NCBI GenBank assembly: GCA_028534125.1 | Contig: CM052816.1 | Span: 60,452,001-60,516,000 of the forward strand | Length of the DNA: 64,000 nucleotides | Direction of reading: 5' to 3' | Source: Lama glama | Taxonomy: Eukaryota | Shown here: piece by piece, positions 930-14,412 of the stretch | Position numbering within the stretch: position 1 is the stretch's first letter | How the letters are laid out: every line of letters begins with the position of its first letter | Position numbers and translations under genes: made by a program | Notes under the pieces: model-generated | Database searches by the model: none | What the model saw: only the letters and a program-made list of their open reading frames with translations | What the model was told of the DNA's origin: nothing

Positions 930-1295
930 CCTATACTGGAGCCCACCCACACCAGCTCAATAAGCTTTCAGGAATTTTATAATCCAGTTGTTAAATACAA
1001 CCCTTATTGCCGATTAAAAAATACCTAAACTTCCAATGAAATATACTGAAAACAAAGGTAAGAGATACTCAAAATTGATTCACTTCCTAATTATTTTGCT
1101 ATACTTTACTAGGATATTTGTCAGTTCTATCTGTACATAATAGAGCTTCACTGGGCATCTCTTCCCGGGTCTGAGGTCACTTTTGCCACACTGGTACTTG
1201 AAACTGGCAGTGGTGGGAGCACTGACACCACAGAAACCAGCAGATGCTACTGATCAGGGTTTTGCTTGTTTCCAAGTCTAGTTGTTCAACACAGG
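930..1295 (+). mobile_element. MER63-like hAT (Blackjack) DNA transposon relic
   Basis: Matches recalled consensus blocks: ttttcaggaatttt..gttgttaaa, aaaacaaaggtaa..atactcaaaa..cacttcctaattatttt, catctcttccc, cttgaaa..ggtgggag..acaccacagaaa..gctac..atcaggg. Confidence 0.75.
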
Positions 1296-1416
1296 AACTC
1301 CCTTGCTACAAGTGATCTTGAATTAACAGAGAAGACTTTGCCACCTCTCAGGCCTTCAAGTATACAAGCATAAGTAATCCCCCACCACCCTATTCTCCGC
1401 AGAGGGACCACACCGC

Positions 1417-1428
1417 CATGCACCATGC
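1417..1428 (-). promoter_or_regulatory. Tandem RBFOX-type splicing elements (GCAUG + UGCAUG) just downstream of the cassette exon donor
   Basis: Minus strand gtgagtgtgtcctgtcGCATGgTGCATGgcgg, 17-28 nt past the 5' splice site. Confidence 0.6.
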
Positions 1429-1444
1429 GACAGGACACACTCAC

Positions 1445-1519
1445 TTTTGAAGCAGCTGGGTCCACTAGTCTCTGGCGATGTCGGGCTGAGTTGAAATGGC
1501 TCTTCGGAGGCTGCCCTTC
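1445..1519 (-). CDS. NTRK2: 75-nt in-frame cassette exon encoding EGQPPKSHFNSARHRQRLVDPAASK; Trk-family kinase activation-loop insert-like exon (host gene inferred to be NTRK2/TrkB)
   Basis: Minus strand reads ...ccccatcttccatcccctgtcag|GAAGGGCAG...GCTTCAAAA|gtgagtgt. Length is 75 nt (25 codons), open in phase 0. It has 10/25 and 11/25 ungapped identities to rat and chicken TrkC 25-aa kinase inserts as recalled from memory. The gene symbol is inferred from paralogy and intron size, not from a flanking exon. Confidence 0.6.
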
Positions 1520-1625
1520 CTGACAGGGGATGGAAGATGGGGATGAACGAGGTGGGAGCAGACAGAGGGGTCATGGGATGATGGGAACATGGTCAGAAAA
1601 GGGAGAGGGACAGTGTTTAACGGCA
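1520..1625 (-). promoter_or_regulatory. Extended polypyrimidine tract / AG-exclusion zone with YCAY (NOVA-type) cluster upstream of the cassette exon
   Basis: No AG on the minus strand from 1522 to 1625; eight YCAY motifs at 1530-1592; candidate distant branch point ttctgac at 1592-1598. Confidence 0.55.
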
Positions 1626-3342
1626 CTGGACTTGTCTGTTTTAGCTAAAATCCAACAATAAAAACACGACACATTTTTTTCCCCACAAAGCACATGCCAC
1701 GTGCAAGTCATTTTGTTAAAAAGAGCCTTGTGTATATGTACATATACATACGCGCATGTGTGATAAACATCTCACGGTATCACATTCCCCTTCAAACCTG
1801 TATTTTTCTCTTACCTGATATTGTCTCTAATTATATTTCAAGGATACTAAGGAAAACTGGAGCATGATTTCCCTGAGTATGAAGTCAATCTTCCTAGAAT
1901 AACAGAAAGTATTAAGGGGCATTCTTAGACTTGCCACCTATTTGGGTATCTCCAAAAAGATATGGAAATCACAGTGTTTCTCAAAACCATGAAAATTCTC
2001 CCGCCTTAGCCTCTCCTCTCTCGGTCATTCTGGCAGAATTCCTGGTGTCGGGCACCCACCAAAAACTCTGCCCCTGAATGTGATTAAATTTTATTGGCTC
2101 AACATTACATTTATAATCTAAATGGTACAAAAGGGTGGGCTTTCTTACACCAGCTGTCGTATACATATAGGACAAATGGATCACATAGAAAGACTGAACA
2201 CCTCTCCATCACTCATTCCATGTCAAACAGACACCAAAAAACCCTAAAGTACTATATTTTAAAGGGAAAGTTTGGAATAGCACCCCCCCCCAAATGGTAC
2301 AGCATTTCACTTCTCCATCTCTCAAAGTTGGGCAAAAGTAAACAAGAATTTAAGAAGCAAGCACTGCCCACTGTCAGCATCAACTTCAGGGTCAGGGAGA
2401 TAAAAGCAACAGAGAGATGGTCTCAGAAAACCCCTGAGTGTAAAGCCCCTGGTCCAAGTGGGCGTCTACACAGGGAGCAAAATATCCCTCAGATGAGCGT
2501 TAGCATTTGCTCACAGAGGAGAGGGAAAAACCTGCTACTTGGGTAAAAATGCGATGTCTGTATTACAATACTTAAGAATTCTTTTCTTTTTTCTCTAAGA
2601 ATAACAGCTCCATTACTTTTAAGACATGGATCAATCACACCCACTTGAATTGCCAACAATCACTGCTTCGGTATCCAAAGTATAACGCTTACCTTTCAAA
2701 AAGGAAATGTCACAAGCAGCAGATTGCAAGTCAGGATTATGTTTTTCCTACTAACTGCCCTGCCAACATGCATACTTTGCCTACCCTCTTCTGAAAAAAA
2801 TGCAAGGAAATAGTTTTAAAGCTCAGTTGACCTAGAAAATGTACCAAAGCTTTCACAGCAAAAATAATGCTCATTAATTCACTGAATATTTGGTGAAACA
2901 AAAACAAACAAAAAACAGAGTAGGACTTTCCATTCAATAGAATCAACAGTTTTTCTATGAGAAATATATATTTTTTAAAGATTTATTTAGCGGTATTTGA
3001 AAAGTAGCCTTTAAATTTAATGGTTTATCAGAAAGTGATTTAAATGCTTTTTTCTCCTTAAAAGAGTTATCAGAGGTAAATAAACAATTATCCTCATTAA
3101 TATATCTGGAGAACTACCTGCCCTTATCAACCTCCCCACGGAATGATTACAACTCATTTAAGAGTTCCAAAGCACAGTGCCAGGCTCCCACTCATCAGGA
3201 AAAAAAAATTAATCTTGGCGTTAAATACACAATTACAGTCAATGTGCAAATTAACTAAATTCTCAGCCTGTGGTTTATTGCTCTTCTTCTGAATCCAAGG
3301 TGAAAATGTTATTTTTTTTAATTAGCTAATTGCACCATGAAC

Positions 3343-5970: not shown

Positions 5971-6049
5971 CCTCAAGTCGCCCAGACTCTAGTGCTGGGC
6001 TCACATCCCTATTCCACTACTTTTGTCCTTCCAGCAGCAGACAAAGCCA

Positions 6050-6535
6050 CCCTAATAGCGTCACTTCTCCAAACTCTCTAGTCCCCTTCCCTTCCACTCC
6101 CCTGAAGTCCTTCCAGGTCCAGCAAAGCCTCAGGCAACCCAGCCCTGCTCCTTTTCTGAGTTCGGACTGCTCCCCCGACTCACTCCAGCCATGCTGGTCT
6201 TCCCGCTGTTCCTGGAGCCCTTCAAGGACTCTCCCAACTCAGAGTCCCTGAGGTTCCCTTCACTAGAAAGAACTCCTTTTTAGTATTTTTGCAAAGTATG
6301 CCTATTCACTCCATTCAGGAAACCTCACGGGTCCCCTCCCCTAAGAGGAACCCCCATCACGCCCTTTCCCCTTTGTCCTCCTTTACTTCCCAAGTTACTA
6401 CTGCCTGACATTACATTGTAGGTGCGTGTGTTTGTCTTTTTTTAAAACTAAGCTCCACAAGGCCAGGAGCTTTGTCTAAGTTGTTCTGGTACTTGATGGA
6501 TGCTGGGTAAATAGTTAACAAACCAATAAATGAAG
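6050..6535 (+). mobile_element. L2 LINE 3' end
   Basis: cactccagccatgctggtcttcccgctgttcctgga..ctaagctccacaaggccaggagctttgtct..aataaatgaa tail. Confidence 0.65.
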
Positions 6536-6577
6536 CAAATGTATTTATATATGATGCCCCAGCTCATCCACACCCCA

Positions 6578-6925
6578 TGTTTCGGTCAGGGTTCCTGCAG
6601 GAATCAGAGAGTACCCTCAGATTGGGTGGTTTGAGAAAACTTTGATAAAGGAATTACTTAGGAGTAGGGCTCCTTCACCACCCTTAGGCCAGAAGGGACA
6701 AAAGGGAGGGAGCTGCTTCCAGAACCCAAAACAGAGCTGGGTGTGCAGAGTCGATGTCAAAAGATCACACAGCCAGCCTGGGCCGGTGCCCCGGGTGGAG
6801 CCAGAGAACAATGGCTTCCATCACCTTCTCCAGTCTCTCTCCTCCCCCGCCTCAGATCACCTGCTCCCCACTGGGCCACACCCAACCAGACACCCAGAAG
6901 CTAGGGATGCAGGTCCCAGTGGAGG
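6578..6925 (-). mobile_element. ERVL solo LTR, LTR33-like
   Basis: Starts tgtttcggtcagggttcctgcaggaatcagagagtaccctcagattgggtggtttgagaaaactttgataaagg, the reverse of the LTR33 3' end; same family as 31697-32157. Confidence 0.6.
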
Positions 6926-7060
6926 AAAGAGAGGGAGAGAGGATGAGAGAAAGGAGGAGGGAGGGTGGGGAGGAAGAGAGAGAGGGGAAAAGAGAGGAAG
7001 AGAAGTGGGGAGAGGAGGGAGGGGTGGGTGGGTGGGGAAGGAGGGCGTGAAGGAAAGGTG
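6920..7060 (+). repeat. GA-rich low-complexity polypurine tract containing GGGGTGGGTGGGTGGGG
   Basis: Almost pure G/A tract, directly visible. Confidence 0.85.
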
Positions 7061-9084
7061 CAAAGTGATTTGGAGGTCAAAGGAATGATAAAAGGTACCC
7101 ACTCCATCACTGAGCAAAAGTTAACAGCAGCAACCATACAGGCTGCTTCCCTTTTTGCTCCGTCTCCTCGCCCAGTCTGAGTTTCTTCAACAGCATGTGC
7201 CGTTCCACCTTCAGAATGGCCCTGGCTGCACTGAATCCGGGATGTGCATCAGCACTGAAGCTCTGTGAACACACCTATGTGTTCAAGGGGAAGAGAGGCA
7301 AACAGTCTGAGCAGAGAAGCCACGTACTACTTTTCCTCCCTGGCTCTCGCTTCCCAGAAATGCTGAAAGGGTGAACTAGATATTATCTGTGAAGTGCTGC
7401 GTATCTAATGACGGGGCTTTTTCTTTTGTCAGGGTTTCACATTAATGTCATTTTGGTAGGTCTGCAGTCTCAAGTCAAAAGAAAACCCTGGGATTGGATT
7501 CTTGATGAAATTCTTACTTTGAATTCAAATTTACTTCCCAACCCTGGCACACTCCAATTTGCCTTTTAAAGTTATTCAACACTGGGAAAGTAGAAAAGCT
7601 AGTCTGCATCTAATCTGTTAGCTGGGGCACTCCCTGGGGCGCAGTGGGAGAAAGCCTGGGGGCCAGTCCCCTCCCTGCCGGCACTGGGTGAGGGAAGCCA
7701 GTCGCAGGCCCTCGGCTTCCTGGACCTCAGCATCCACATCTGTAACTACACATGATCCACCTGATGGTTGGAATTCCACGACATTCCAAGGTCCTCTCCA
7801 AAGGTTAGCTCCACATTATAAAGATCAGAAATATCCACGATACCCTGTTTTAAAAATGAGTGAAGTCAATTACTGGGATCATGCCATAGTTCAGATTTCT
7901 TGTAGGCTTTATACTGTCTGAACTTCAGGAGTCACAGTACTGACTTGCTATTTAGAAAATGTTTACATTTACTGCTGTTCATAGAAAAATGTTTGGGTCT
8001 TAGACTATATTATACCCATCAGTCAATGATGCTTTGTTAGAGCATTTCAGAACCTTACATATTGATTCAAATTAATGAATTTTGTGTCAAAGACCAGTTA
8101 ACATATTTTACCAGAGACAATAAGTTTATGGATGTAATTACTGACTTGAGCTCCAAAAACACAGCACAATTATATGGCAGCACATATGTCAACCCATTTA
8201 AGTCACTTCAATTTAGAAAAAAATTTAATGATATCACATGCCACACTTTTTTTTTTAATGAGAAATATTACAAGATACCTAAATTAAGAGAACCAATTTT
8301 CCACAGGGAAATCTGGGGGGGAAATTTAAAGGTAAACCAATTTTCTGAAGGCAAAATAAAATTTTCAACGTAGCTCTGAGTTGTACCCAAAGCAAATTAT
8401 TGCTGGCAAGTAATATGGCTCTGATAATTAGACTTGATTGGGGTTTAAATTAAGCAGGGGGATGCACTCGACTTCTCAGAGCTGTTTTGATTTGTTTCAT
8501 CTGTTTGAGCAGCCGTGGGGAGACCAGTCAGGGGCCCAGGAAGGGGGAAGCAGCCTGGCTCTGCAGATGTGGGCAGGCTGCTGTCTAAGTGACCTCTCTC
8601 TCATCTTGTAGCTGCTTATCACACAGATTCACATGTGGAGCAGAGTAAGGGCCTACACATACAGCCATTCCTAACTACAACACCAAACACCTGATATAAC
8701 ACTGCCACCCTGTCATACAATGACAACATGAAGGGTTTTTTTTGTTTGTTTTTACCCTAAGAGTGAGTAATTGCCATAAATTCTTGGGTGGGGTATATGG
8801 ATGAAAGGTTGTCTTTTCACTTCCTCTCATTAATAAGGCCTTGGATGCTTAGAGAGCATGAACTTTTTTTTTTTTTCAAGGTACAAGAAAAAGGGACCCT
8901 CCTGTTTAGGTCACACGGCTATAATTCCATTCTCTGCTCTTTAACCAAAGCCCGCTTTATTTGGAGAACATTAAAAAATGCATTCTGATTTTTCCTAGTG
9001 GTTCCACTTGCTAGGCTTTGCCCCATGGGATACACACAGCACGTGTGGAAGGCACTTGATCATGGTGGAAATGGTCCCCAAGAC

Positions 9085-13490: not shown

Positions 13491-13989
13491 TAACCGCTGG
13501 CCATGTAACCATGTAACCACTACTCGTGCCTAGGTCAATGCTTAAAACAAGGACATTCCAATTTCACAAAAAGCACAATCACAAGATTTTCCTACAGTAA
13601 TATGGGCATAGAGTTGTCGTTGTGCAAACATACAGGACTTGATTCAAAACTTGATAAGAAGTAAATCAGACTGAAAATCAGGAAGGCAATCAGTCAGAAT
13701 GTGTCTTCCTGATAAAGACAACGCACAGAACTTCTAATCTTTTCCTCCAGACAGCAGTGACATTGACTGGCACGTTCAAGTGGAAATAGTAAAGTAAAAT
13801 GCATGAATCTTCCACAAACCATTGTACAAGAGCATTCATCCATTTACAGCCCAGGTAGGGATCAAACAGGTCCTTGATCTCCTTCACCTTTGCACTCTGT
13901 CCATGAGGGTGCAAGGCTCCCCCTGAGATCAGGCTGCAGCCCCCTCTGCCAGTGTAGCAGACACCAGGGGTTGTCTCCTTCCCCACGGC

Positions 13990-14412
13990 CCACCCTGGAC
14001 CCCCAGCAACATGAGCCTCAGCTGCAGAGAGGCCCCGGAGCAAGCTCAGACCTGCTGCTACTGCTGCCCCACCTCCAACACACACGGGGCATCTTTCTAC
14101 TTCTGCCCCAGGCACTATCCAGGACCACGGGGGCTGGCCAGGCCCAGAGTGAGAAGGACGTAATTCCTCTGGGACAACCTTCCACCCATGGGGACAGGAG
14201 CAGGTGGTGGATACACTCCAGATTCTGGGAGGAGTCCTTCAAATGGATGATTCCGAGAGGGGCTCTTTCCACTTGTGTCACTGCAGTGACAGCCCAGTGC
14301 CTGTGGCAGTGATCTTATATCGGCTTTCCTTCAACATCACACCTCCGTCCTCATTCCTGCTCCCTGAGACCACCTCTCAAACTCTTTGCCTTTAAATCTG
14401 CATCTCCAGCCC
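13990..14412 (+). mobile_element. ERVL solo LTR, LTR16-like
   Basis: 3' end ctccctgagaccacctctcaaactctttgcctttaaatctgcatctccagccctgctttcaggagaactccaa resembles the LTR16-family terminus; left boundary uncertain. Confidence 0.5.

What the first reader, a model, noticed from the sequence alone, without database searches (positions are those of the whole stretch)
1445..1519. Hidden 75-nt exon homologous to the TrkC 25-aa kinase insert: candidate kinase-insert isoform of TrkB (NTRK2)
Seen: canonical cag|...|gtgagt boundaries enclose exactly 25 codons, EGQPPKSHFNSARHRQRLVDPAASK in phase 0. Established (recalled, not searched): TrkC isoforms carry a 25-aa insert between ...STDYYR and VGGHTML... in the activation-loop region. 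The rat insert is EGPYQKGPFSVSWQQQRLAASAAST and the chicken insert is EGPRPKGQLSTAWQRHRLAPPAAAT; such inserts blunt downstream signalling. The peptide here aligns ungapped with identical length: 10/25 to rat, 11/25 to chicken, and 14/25 positions match one or the other (EG..K..F......QRL...AAS). Inference: rat and chicken share 14/25, so a camelid NTRK3 ortholog should be much closer to rat than this. NTRK1 is too compact to have >62 kb of exon-free upstream intron. That points to an ohnologous cassette exon in the large equivalent intron of NTRK2. A kinase-insert form is not among the classical TrkB isoforms I know (FL, T1, T-Shc, T-TK), so this may be an under-described BDNF-receptor variant. 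Caveat: phase 1 is also open (RAASEEPFQLSPTSPETSGPSCFK).
Basis: partly seen in the sequence, partly recalled or inferred. Interest (0 to 1): 0.9.

Follow-up and report, generated by a model that had tools for sequence, protein, structure and literature searches.

The report
MAST4 cassette exon, TrkC-insert relative
The 75-base exon is real and truly related to the TrkC kinase-insert exon, but it lies in the MAST4 gene rather than TrkB, and is one of four related exons scattered among four unrelated signalling genes.

Summary
Window 1519..1445 (minus strand) is cag|75 nt|gtgagt and reads EGQPPKSHFNSARHRQRLVDPAASK.

The TrkB reading fails. The window is C1:60452001-60516000. The TrkB exons lie on C26 and the TrkC exons on C15. 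The host gene is MAST4, on the minus strand.

The exon sits in phase between the exon ending ...SAPSLTANL and the micro-exon KELSLPRRGS. Three gene models splice it in: goat, Tupaia and Galeopterus. In 9 unspliced ORFs from other assemblies, 222 of 225 exon residues are identical, against about 50% for the flanking intron translation.

The likeness to the TrkC insert is real DNA homology. This genome holds exactly four copies of a ~200-nt unit: GTTAAA, a 90-112-nt AG-free pyrimidine tract, the 75-nt exon, then GTGAGT. The copies lie in MAST4, OSBPL6, the NTRK3 kinase intron and SH3KBP1. The SH3KBP1 copy is read in another frame.

The best reading is a regulated MAST4 alternative exon from an ancient dispersed exon unit. 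A mobile-element origin is inferred and was not tested. No RNA data were available.

The parts
1445..1519 (-). 75-nt, phase 0-0 alternative cassette exon of MAST4, encoding EGQPPKSHFNSARHRQRLVDPAASK
   Evidence: Sequence and translation are. It is in phase with the upstream exon at C1:60526067-60526191 (ends ...SLTANL, phase 0) and the downstream micro-exon KELSLPRRGS near C1:60428096-60428127. It is spliced into goat P0031, Tupaia P0033 and Galeopterus P0035. In 9 unspliced ORFs, 222 of 225 residues are identical.
1439..1444 (-). 5' splice site GTGAGT, identical in all four copies of the family
   Evidence: Alignment A2 and the regex extraction.
1520..1625 (-). 106-nt AG-exclusion zone and polypyrimidine tract (80% C+T), ending in the 3' splice site ctgtcag
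   Evidence: The same feature is 112, 111 and 90 nt long in the C5, C15 and C37 copies, with 87-91% pyrimidine.
1616..1621 (-). GTTAAA, invariant in all four copies and at or within a few bases of the 5' edge of the AG-free zone; inferred distal branch-point region
   Evidence: Invariant columns in A2 and positions -97 to -118. The branch-point role is inferred and was not tested.
1417..1428 (-). GCATGGTGCATG, i.e. GCAUG at +17 and UGCAUG at +23 downstream of the 5' splice site (an Rbfox-type motif)
   Evidence: No such motif lies within 130 nt downstream in the other three copies. In 5 of the 9 unspliced ORFs of other assemblies, residues C-M (codons TGC/TGT + ATG) stand about 12 codons after the exon (P0113, P0117, P0119, P0128, P0130). 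This is consistent with a conserved (U)GCAUG but is read from the translation only.
1438..1633 (-). The whole homology unit shared with the OSBPL6, NTRK3 and SH3KBP1 copies
   Evidence: Pairwise blastn. C1 aligns to C5 from 114 nt upstream of the exon to 7 nt downstream of it, which is window 1633..1438. No other collinear match was found in the compared flanks (about 1.5 kb either side, less for the 801-nt C15 locus).

Best explanation
Window 1445-1519 (minus strand) is a conserved alternative cassette exon of MAST4 (microtubule-associated serine/threonine kinase 4). When included, it inserts 25 basic residues into the N-terminal region, between ...RSQALGQSAPSLTA(N/S)L and KELSLPRRGS(F/L), without changing the reading frame. 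That this region is disordered is assumed, not tested. Most gene models skip the exon.

Its splicing unit consists of an invariant GTTAAA, a ~100-nt AG-free pyrimidine tract, a ctgtcag 3' splice site, the 75-nt exon and a GTGAGT 5' splice site. The unit is one of four homologous copies in this genome. The others are the TrkC (NTRK3) 25-aa kinase-insert exon, a widely annotated 25-aa cassette of OSBPL6, and a cassette of SH3KBP1 read in another frame.

Shown: host gene, phase, homology, cross-species conservation, and inclusion in gene models.

Inferred: (a) inclusion is tissue-regulated, probably in neurons or muscle, through the long CU-rich tract (PTB-type repression) and the downstream UGCAUG (Rbfox-type activation); (b) the four copies descend from one ancient exon-ready element, either a mobile element or a copied exon with its upstream intron, that reached four unrelated genes before or early in amniote evolution.
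For: Host gene:
- An exon 97 kb upstream on the same strand is 100% identical to Camelus ferus MAST4. It drew 107 hits at E<=0.001, and the source-named ones are mostly MAST4.
- MAST4 exons lie on C1 minus from 60696436 to 60200519.
- tblastn maps the models' exons in order.

Phase:
- The upstream exon ends in phase 0 and the KELSLPRRGS exon starts in phase 0.

Inclusion:
- P0031 reads ...SLTASL-EGQPPKSHFNSARHRQRLVDPAASK-KELSLPRRGSL.
- P0033 and P0035 also splice the exon to the upstream exon.

Constraint:
- 222 of 225 exon residues are identical across 9 unspliced ORFs, against 66 of 126 and 61 of 126 in the flanks.

Family:
- Own-genome DNA searches with each copy as query give only C1, C5, C15 and C37, plus three short hits confined to the CT-rich tract.
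- All four exons are 75 nt with no indel, while the upstream tract has many indels.
- All six pairs align only from about -114 to +7..+12.

Other hosts:
- C5 lies 23 kb upstream of Oxysterol_BP exons on the same strand. Its peptide is spliced into 86 of the 120 listed proteins; the named ones are overwhelmingly called ORP6/OSBPL6, and they span mammals, birds, turtles, squamates and platypus.
- C15 lies inside the TrkC kinase intron.
- C37 lies between SH3KBP1 exons. It is spliced as ...[37 protein letters not shown] in P0227 and P0228.

Frame:
- Summed over the six pairs, identity by codon position in frame 0 is 105, 97 and 76 of 150.

Regulatory motifs:
-.
Against: There is no RNA evidence.

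The three including models are automatic predictions (one 'hypothetical protein', two partial) and may be ab initio. Of the 12 proteins fetched, 8 skip the exon (SLTASLKELSLPRRGS), 1 includes it and 3 do not span the junction. A search of proteins of 542-2000 aa found no model with the insert, and full-length MAST4 (>2000 aa) could not be searched.

The regulatory reading rests on motif presence only. The mobile-element origin is untested: no repeat library, no other vertebrate genome, and no tRNA-like head, tail or target-site duplication was looked for or seen. Four copies is a very small family. Frame 2 is also open in all four copies, so an open frame alone says little.
Confidence: 0.85

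Rival explanations
1. One reading: a cassette exon in the kinase-domain intron of NTRK2, giving a kinase-insert TrkB isoform that is ohnologous to the TrkC insert.
For: The peptide really is homologous to the TrkC insert. The exon is phase 0, as the DYYR|VGG intron would need.
Against: The DVYSTDYYR pattern is found only at C15:12613758 and C26:5015485. The C26 exons match TrkB best, at 151 against 116 bits, and the C15 exons match TrkC best, at 154 against 115 bits. No kinase motif lies within 100 kb of the window. The flanking exons are MAST4. No copy of the unit was detected on C26.
Confidence: 0.01
2. A conserved pseudo-exon or non-coding element. It would be kept for an RNA- or DNA-level role, such as a splicing decoy, a recursive-splicing site in a ~98-kb intron, or an enhancer. 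It would rarely or never contribute to MAST4 protein, and the gene models that include it would be prediction artefacts.
For: Most MAST4 models skip it. There is no RNA evidence. The best-conserved parts among the four paralogous copies are the splice sites and the tract rather than the peptide. Two frames are open in all copies.
Against: Across species the 25 residues are almost invariant (222 of 225) while the adjacent intron translation is about 50% identical. That pattern points to constraint centred on the exon. The protein-level test (synonymous against non-synonymous change) needs the DNA of those species, which was not held. Third codon positions are the least conserved among the copies. 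The three sister copies are used as coding exons in gene models or, for TrkC, by recalled literature.
Confidence: 0.07
3. A rival for the origin only. The four copies did not come from a mobile-element family. Instead, the exon and its upstream intron were copied directly from one host gene (OSBPL6 is the most central copy) into introns of the others, by DNA- or RNA-mediated segmental duplication, which is classical exon shuffling.
For: Only four copies exist, and none lies outside a gene. C5 (OSBPL6) is the closest relative of each of the other three. Homology starts at the branch-point region and stops 7-12 nt after the 5' splice site, which is what selection would leave of any copied segment.
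Against: No mechanism-specific trace was seen, such as flanking homology or a poly-A. Reviews report that an ancient SINE (LF-SINE) gave 19 coding exons in unrelated tetrapod genes, 16 of them alternative (passage read in PMC9148063), so a mobile-element source has precedent. Neither origin could be tested here.
Confidence: 0.3

Closest known systems
TrkC (NTRK3) 25-aa kinase-insert exon (ki25 / K3 isoforms)
   Same: Homologous at the DNA level. It has the same 75-nt length, the same ctgtcag|GAA...|GTGAGT boundaries, the same long AG-free pyrimidine tract and GTTAAA, and the same reading frame and phase. The peptides match at 11 of 25 positions.
   Different: The host and the protein context differ. 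In TrkC the insert lies in the activation loop after DVYSTDYYR. Its effect of blunting signalling is recalled from the 1993-94 papers; only the title of Garner & Large 1994 was seen, in reference lists. Here it lies in the N-terminal region of a serine/threonine kinase, far from the catalytic domain.
OSBPL6 (ORP6) 25-aa cassette EGP..KGQFSTTRRRQRLAAAVATT
   Same: This is the closest sister copy, at 69% over 209 nt with E 3.5e-24. It has the same frame and length, and it is an alternative cassette in a linker region.
   Different: It is widely annotated: 86 of the 120 listed proteins splice it to VPFSATMSPVRLHS, across amniotes and including a human model. The MAST4 copy appears in only 3 models.
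SH3KBP1 (CIN85) cassette ...[24 protein letters not shown]...
   Same: It has the same homologous unit and is spliced into gene models.
   Different: It sits in a phase-1 intron and is read in the other open frame. The protein products are therefore unrelated, even though the DNA is homologous.
LF-SINE-derived alternative exons (e.g. the PCBP2 exon; Bejerano et al. 2006)
   Same: They show the same pattern: one ancient element supplying alternatively spliced coding exons to unrelated genes and kept under strong constraint. This is taken from a passage in the review PMC9148063.
   Different: Membership was not tested. No repeat library was available and the original paper is not held. This family has only four detectable copies, all with identical exon boundaries.
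Classical TrkB isoforms (full-length, T1, T-Shc)
   Different: The window is not in NTRK2, and no copy of the unit was found in the NTRK2 kinase intron.

Membership tests
NTRK2 (TrkB) kinase-insert exon | Lies in NTRK2, between the exons encoding ...DVYSTDYYR and VGGHTMLPIRW... | tested here: not met
   Those exons are at C26:5015469-5015675 and C26:4961588-4961773 and match TrkB best in the PDB. The window is on C1, and no kinase motif lies within 100 kb of it.
Homologues of the TrkC 25-aa insert exon | Significant sequence homology to the exon inside the NTRK3 kinase intron | tested here: met
   The C15 copy lies between C15:12613748 and C15:12573375. C1 against C15 gives E 6.8e-12 and C5 against C15 gives E 8.5e-31. 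The C15 exons match TrkC best.
Homologues of the TrkC 25-aa insert exon | Same exon length, splice-site sequences and reading frame | tested here: met
   All four copies are 75 nt with ctgtcag|GAA and |GTGAGT. Phase 0 holds in MAST4 and NTRK3.
MAST4 alternative cassette exon | Inside MAST4, on the sense strand, in phase with both neighbouring exons | tested here: met
MAST4 alternative cassette exon | Found spliced into MAST4 products | tested here: inconclusive
   Three predicted proteins include it, but these are gene models. RNA runs could not be searched. No protein of 542-2000 aa carried the insert.
MAST4 alternative cassette exon | Purifying selection on the coding sequence | tested here: met
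   222 of 225 exon residues are identical, against 127 of 252 flank residues, in 9 unspliced ORFs. No dN/dS could be computed because the DNA of those species was not held.
LF-SINE or other exapted ancient mobile element | Sequence match to the element's consensus | not testable with these tools
   No Dfam or Repbase library was available. Rfam gave no match on window 1000-2200. Bejerano 2006 is not held.
LF-SINE or other exapted ancient mobile element | Dispersed copies in unrelated genomic contexts | tested here: met
   There are four copies on four contigs, in MAST4, OSBPL6, NTRK3 and SH3KBP1.
Rbfox/PTB-regulated tissue-specific exon | (U)GCAUG within about 300 nt downstream, and a long CU-rich tract with a distant branch point upstream | tested here: met
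   UGCAUG at +23, GCAUG at +17, and a 106-nt AG-free tract that is 80% pyrimidine. This shows motif presence only. Binding and regulatory effect cannot be tested here.

The most novel reading that the evidence does not exclude
A small, possibly undescribed family of 'portable exons'. One ~200-nt ready-made splicing unit (distal branch-point motif, ~100-nt AG-free pyrimidine tract, 75-nt exon, GTGAGT) was dispersed into introns of four unrelated signalling genes: OSBPL6, NTRK3, MAST4 and SH3KBP1. The dispersal happened before or early in amniote evolution, and each copy became a conserved alternative cassette. The unit gave TrkC its kinase insert, which by recalled literature attenuates signalling. 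It is read in two different frames in different hosts, so what was co-opted was the regulated splicing module rather than a peptide.
Probability: 0.3. Interest if true: 0.65.

Novelty: new member of a known kind. Interest (0 to 1): 0.45.

Why it matters
For neurotrophin biology the result is negative. This locus gives no support for a kinase-insert TrkB isoform.

The positive result has two parts. First, MAST4 is a large kinase gene, and here it carries a strongly conserved 25-residue alternative cassette that few gene models include. The cassette lies next to the conserved KELSLPRRGS motif, where it could change regulation of the N-terminal region.

Second, the TrkC kinase-insert exon is not a Trk invention. 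It shares ancestry with cassettes in OSBPL6, MAST4 and SH3KBP1. That provides an origin for a classic signalling-modifying insert. It also offers a compact natural system of four copies in two reading frames for asking how a dispersed splicing unit is co-opted and co-regulated.

Tried and rejected
1. Kinase motifs (DYYR, PIRWM, HRDLA and others) were sought in six frames of 264 kb around the window. None was found in a kinase context.

2. A PF07714 scan of the genome gave no hit near C1:60.45 Mb.

As a genome query it found only itself.

It was replaced by a codon-usage log-odds scan, using a human codon table recalled from memory, which found the MAST4 and SH3KBP1 exons.

5. The MAST1, MAST2 and MAST3 paralogues were considered as hosts for the sister copies. 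This was rejected: they lie on C11 and C9, where no copy exists.

6. An origin by whole-genome duplication (ohnology) was rejected, because the four hosts are unrelated genes.

7. Rfam found nothing on window 1000-2200.

8. A search of earlier findings by place and by sequence returned nothing.

9. A search for proteins of 542-2000 aa carrying the MAST4 insert found none.

10. Literature searches found no paper linking these exons:
- TrkC / kinase insert / 25 amino acid: 0 papers.
- OSBPL6 / NTRK3 / MAST4 / SH3KBP1 with SINE, LF-SINE, LFSINE, exaptation or exonization: only unrelated gene lists.
- MAST4 / cassette exon / Rbfox: none of the 12 listed papers mentions MAST4.

It was not pursued, and read laying was not used.

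12. No structure or complex prediction was run.

Full report
**1. The observation**

On the minus strand the window reads ccatcccctgtcag|GAAGGGCAG...GCTTCAAAA|gtgagtgtg. The bounded stretch is 75 nt (1519..1445) and translates to EGQPPKSHFNSARHRQRLVDPAASK. Frame 0 stays open for 94 codons around it. The description is accurate. By itself such a stretch would not be remarkable.

**2. Where the window is**

The own-genome search places the window at C1:60452001-60516000 of a 2.35-Gb assembly.

I fetched 100 kb on each side. No Trk-type kinase motif appeared in any of the six frames of the 264 kb.

A degenerate pattern for DVYSTDYYR occurs in the whole genome only at C15:12613758 and C26:5015485. 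The exons there translate as follows:
- C15: ...FGMSRDVYSTDYYR, then VGGHTMLPIRW...SFGVILWEIF...WFQLSNTEV.
- C26: the same motifs, with ...SLGVVLWEIF...WYQLSNNEV.

Against PDB sequences, the C15 exon matches 'NT-3 growth factor receptor' best, at 154 bits against 115 for TrkB. The C26 exon matches 'BDNF/NT-3 growth factors receptor' best, at 151 bits against 116. NTRK3 is therefore on C15 and NTRK2 on C26. The window is in neither.

**3. The host gene**

A codon-usage log-odds scan of the 264 kb picked out two minus-strand exons upstream of the finding. Their splice sites and phases were read from the DNA:
- C1:60550582-60550735 encodes LDHILSPPPMPFRKCSNPDV...RRGSLGGALTG and ends in phase 1.
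- C1:60526067-60526191 encodes ..RYLLPNPAVGPAWPASAETSNLVRIRSQALGQSAPSLTANL and ends in phase 0.

The first exon is 100% identical to a Camelus ferus protein named MAST4. It drew 107 hits at E<=0.001, and the ones that a source names are mostly called MAST4.

A rodent MAST4 protein maps exon by exon to C1 minus, from 60696436 (residues 1-121) to 60200519.

The next downstream exon is a 32-nt micro-exon, cag|AAGGAGCTGAGTCTTCCCAGAAGAGGAAGTTT|gtaagt. It encodes KELSLPRRGS, lies near C1:60428096-60428127 and starts in phase 0. These coordinates were read by eye from the printed DNA and are approximate. The 75-nt exon therefore fits in frame 0 between both neighbours.

**4. Is it used, and is it constrained?**

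Twelve MAST4-like proteins were fetched.
- One, goat P0031, reads ...SAPSLTASL-EGQPPKSHFNSARHRQRLVDPAASK-KELSLPRRGSL. All 25 residues are identical to the window.
- Eight skip the exon (SLTASLKELSLPRRGS).
- Three do not span the junction.

A profile search added two more including models. Tupaia P0033 has 24 of 25 residues identical. Galeopterus P0035 has 25 of 25. Both are spliced to ...SLTA(S/P)L.

The same search returned 9 unspliced ORFs from other unnamed assemblies. In these, the exon residues are 222 of 225 identical to the window. The 14 residues of intron translation on each side are 66 of 126 and 61 of 126 identical. That is constraint centred on the exon.

The evidence has limits:
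- The including proteins are automatic gene models.
- A search restricted to proteins of 542-2000 aa found none with the insert.
- Full-length MAST4 (>2000 aa) could not be searched.

**5. The likeness to the TrkC insert is real, and wider than Trk**

DNA searches of the own genome, using each copy in turn as query, return four loci. All are on the minus strand of their contigs:
- C1, the window.
- C5:44877816-44878010.
- C15:12596040-12596213.
- C37:11122829-11122960.

Three extra short hits were confined to the CT-rich tract.

All four loci read ctgtcag|GAA + 72 nt|GTGAGT with no indel in the exon. The upstream tract has many indels.

Every one of the six pairs aligns once only, over 177-213 nt, from about 114 nt upstream of the exon to 7-12 nt past it. 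E values run from 3.6e-10 to 8.5e-31.

The unit begins at or within a few bases of an invariant GTTAAA. It then runs through an AG-free zone of 106, 112, 111 and 90 nt that is 80-91% pyrimidine. This is the anatomy of an exon with a distant branch point and a long polypyrimidine tract.

The hosts of the other three copies were identified as follows.

- **C15 (NTRK3).** The copy lies inside the TrkC intron between the DVYSTDYYR exon (12613748) and the VGGHTML exon (12573375). It encodes EGPCQKGPFSMSWQRQRLAASAAST.
- **C5 (OSBPL6).** The copy lies 23 kb upstream of, and on the same strand as, Oxysterol_BP exons at C5:44845734-44854944. Its peptide, EGPSAKGQFSTTRRRQRLAAAVATT, is spliced to VPFS(A/T)TMSPVRLHS in 86 of the 120 proteins listed. 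The named ones are overwhelmingly called ORP6/OSBPL6, and they come from mammals (including a human model and camelids), birds, turtles, squamates and platypus.
- **C37 (SH3KBP1).** The copy lies between exons that match SH3KBP1 best, at 58 bits against 40 for CD2AP. That intron is phase 1, so the exon is read in the other open frame. Two proteins, P0227 and P0228, carry ...[37 protein letters not shown], spliced to the downstream exon exactly as predicted.

The 120 listed hits break down as follows:

| Type | Count | Splicing state |
|---|---|---|
| OSBPL6-type | 98 | 86 spliced to VPFS(A/T)TM, 12 not |
| MAST4-type | 12 | 3 spliced, 9 unspliced |
| TrkC-type | 7 | all unspliced |
| SH3KBP1-type | 3 | all unspliced |

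A further 29 hits were not shown.

MAST1, MAST2 and MAST3 (C11, C9) and NTRK2 (C26) hold no detectable copy.

**6. Reading frame**

In MAST4, NTRK3 and OSBPL6 the exon is read in frame 0. Summed over the six pairs of copies, identity by codon position in frame 0 is 105, 97 and 76 of 150. This is the pattern expected for coding constraint in that frame. It is, however, the frame that SH3KBP1 uses.

**7. How it most likely works**

Shown: the element is a cassette that adds 25 mostly basic residues to the MAST4 N-terminal region just before KELSLPRRGS, and it preserves the frame.

Inferred: inclusion is regulated.
- The ~100-nt CU-rich, AG-free tract with a distant branch-point motif is typical of repressible exons of the PTB type.
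- The MAST4 copy alone has GCAUG at +17 and UGCAUG at +23 after the 5' splice site. Rbfox proteins bind GCAUG, as stated in the abstract of PMC11874969 (seen in the listing). That a downstream site promotes inclusion is recalled.
- In 5 of the 9 unspliced ORFs, residues C-M appear about 12 codons after the exon. This is consistent with conservation of that motif, but it is read from translations only.
- I therefore expect neuron- or muscle-biased inclusion. That is a prediction, not a result.

**8. Origin**

The four hosts are unrelated genes, so whole-genome duplication cannot explain the family. Either an ancient mobile element with strong splice signals was exonised four times, or an exon with its upstream intron was copied between genes.

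A review states that LF-SINE supplied 19 coding exons to unrelated tetrapod genes, 16 of them alternative (passage read in PMC9148063). The original paper is not held. No repeat library or other vertebrate genome was available, so membership in LF-SINE or any other repeat family is untested.

The OSBPL6 copy is the nearest relative of each of the others. It is either the slowest-evolving copy or the source.

The four copies must predate the species spread seen for each:
- OSBPL6: amniotes.
- TrkC: birds and mammals, by recalled literature. Only the title of Garner & Large 1994 was seen.

**9. Novelty and verdict**

The TrkB kinase-insert idea is refuted. The exon already exists in a few automatic MAST4 models, so it is not new as an annotation.

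I found nothing in print on the shared ancestry of the TrkC insert exon with the MAST4, OSBPL6 and SH3KBP1 cassettes. The searches were made, and they cover open-access full text only. The supplement of the 2006 LF-SINE paper, which I could not see, may list some of these exons.

I class the finding as a new member of a known kind: a conserved alternative exon belonging to a dispersed, probably exapted, exon family. Its interest is moderate.

Noticed in passing
L013, C1:60516001-60526000: C1:60519155 (would be window 67155; outside the window): This is the only DYYR in the six frames of the 264 kb. It lies in a stop-ridden frame and is not a kinase exon. It shows how easily a motif search alone could mislead.
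   Followed up: yes
C1:60451188-60451274 (726-812 bases below window position 1; locus L012): The tail of the Tupaia MAST4 model P0033 (residues 191-219, after the cassette) matches weakly here, at 52% identity and E 3.5e-4, about 2.2 kb downstream of the cassette. It may be an alternative terminal exon used together with the cassette.
   Followed up: no
window 6001-8000 and 13800-14200: The first is the window's most GC-rich 2-kb bin (GC 0.494, against 0.35-0.46 in the other bins). Both patches have high codon-usage scores on both strands (for example window 6687-7055 on the plus strand, 7621-7740 on both strands, and 13849-14159). It is unclear whether these are repeats, a CpG island or an alternative MAST4 promoter or exon.
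   Followed up: no
L018 C1:60561828-60561989 (outside the window): An alternative MAST4 first exon used by the Camelus ferus model P0002 (residues 1-54, 91% identical). MAST4 has several 5' ends in this large intron region.
   Followed up: partly
C1:60420402-60420901 and C37:11130263-11130762: Two runs of 500 N. The C37 run hides part of the SH3KBP1 exon that ends ...DDLGISQDEQLSKS(S).
   Followed up: partly
C5:44718187-44718912 (+): A protein-kinase domain match inside a 2140-codon open frame, 160 kb from the OSBPL6 cassette on the opposite strand. I guessed it was the titin kinase exon, by recalled synteny with OSBPL6. That guess led me to OSBPL6, but the locus itself was not checked.
   Followed up: no
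all four copies (window 1445-1519; L002, L023, L024): Frames 0 and 2 are open in all four copies. Frame 1 is closed in all four: three share the same CTAG, and the C37 copy has a different stop. Two different frames are actually used, frame 0 in three hosts and frame 2 in SH3KBP1.
   Followed up: partly
P0227 (SH3KBP1-like, 167 aa): A further segment, RPEGLPPASLLPFPAHGAKG, lies between ...QLSKS and the cassette in this model. There may be a second alternative exon just upstream of the SH3KBP1 copy.
   Followed up: no
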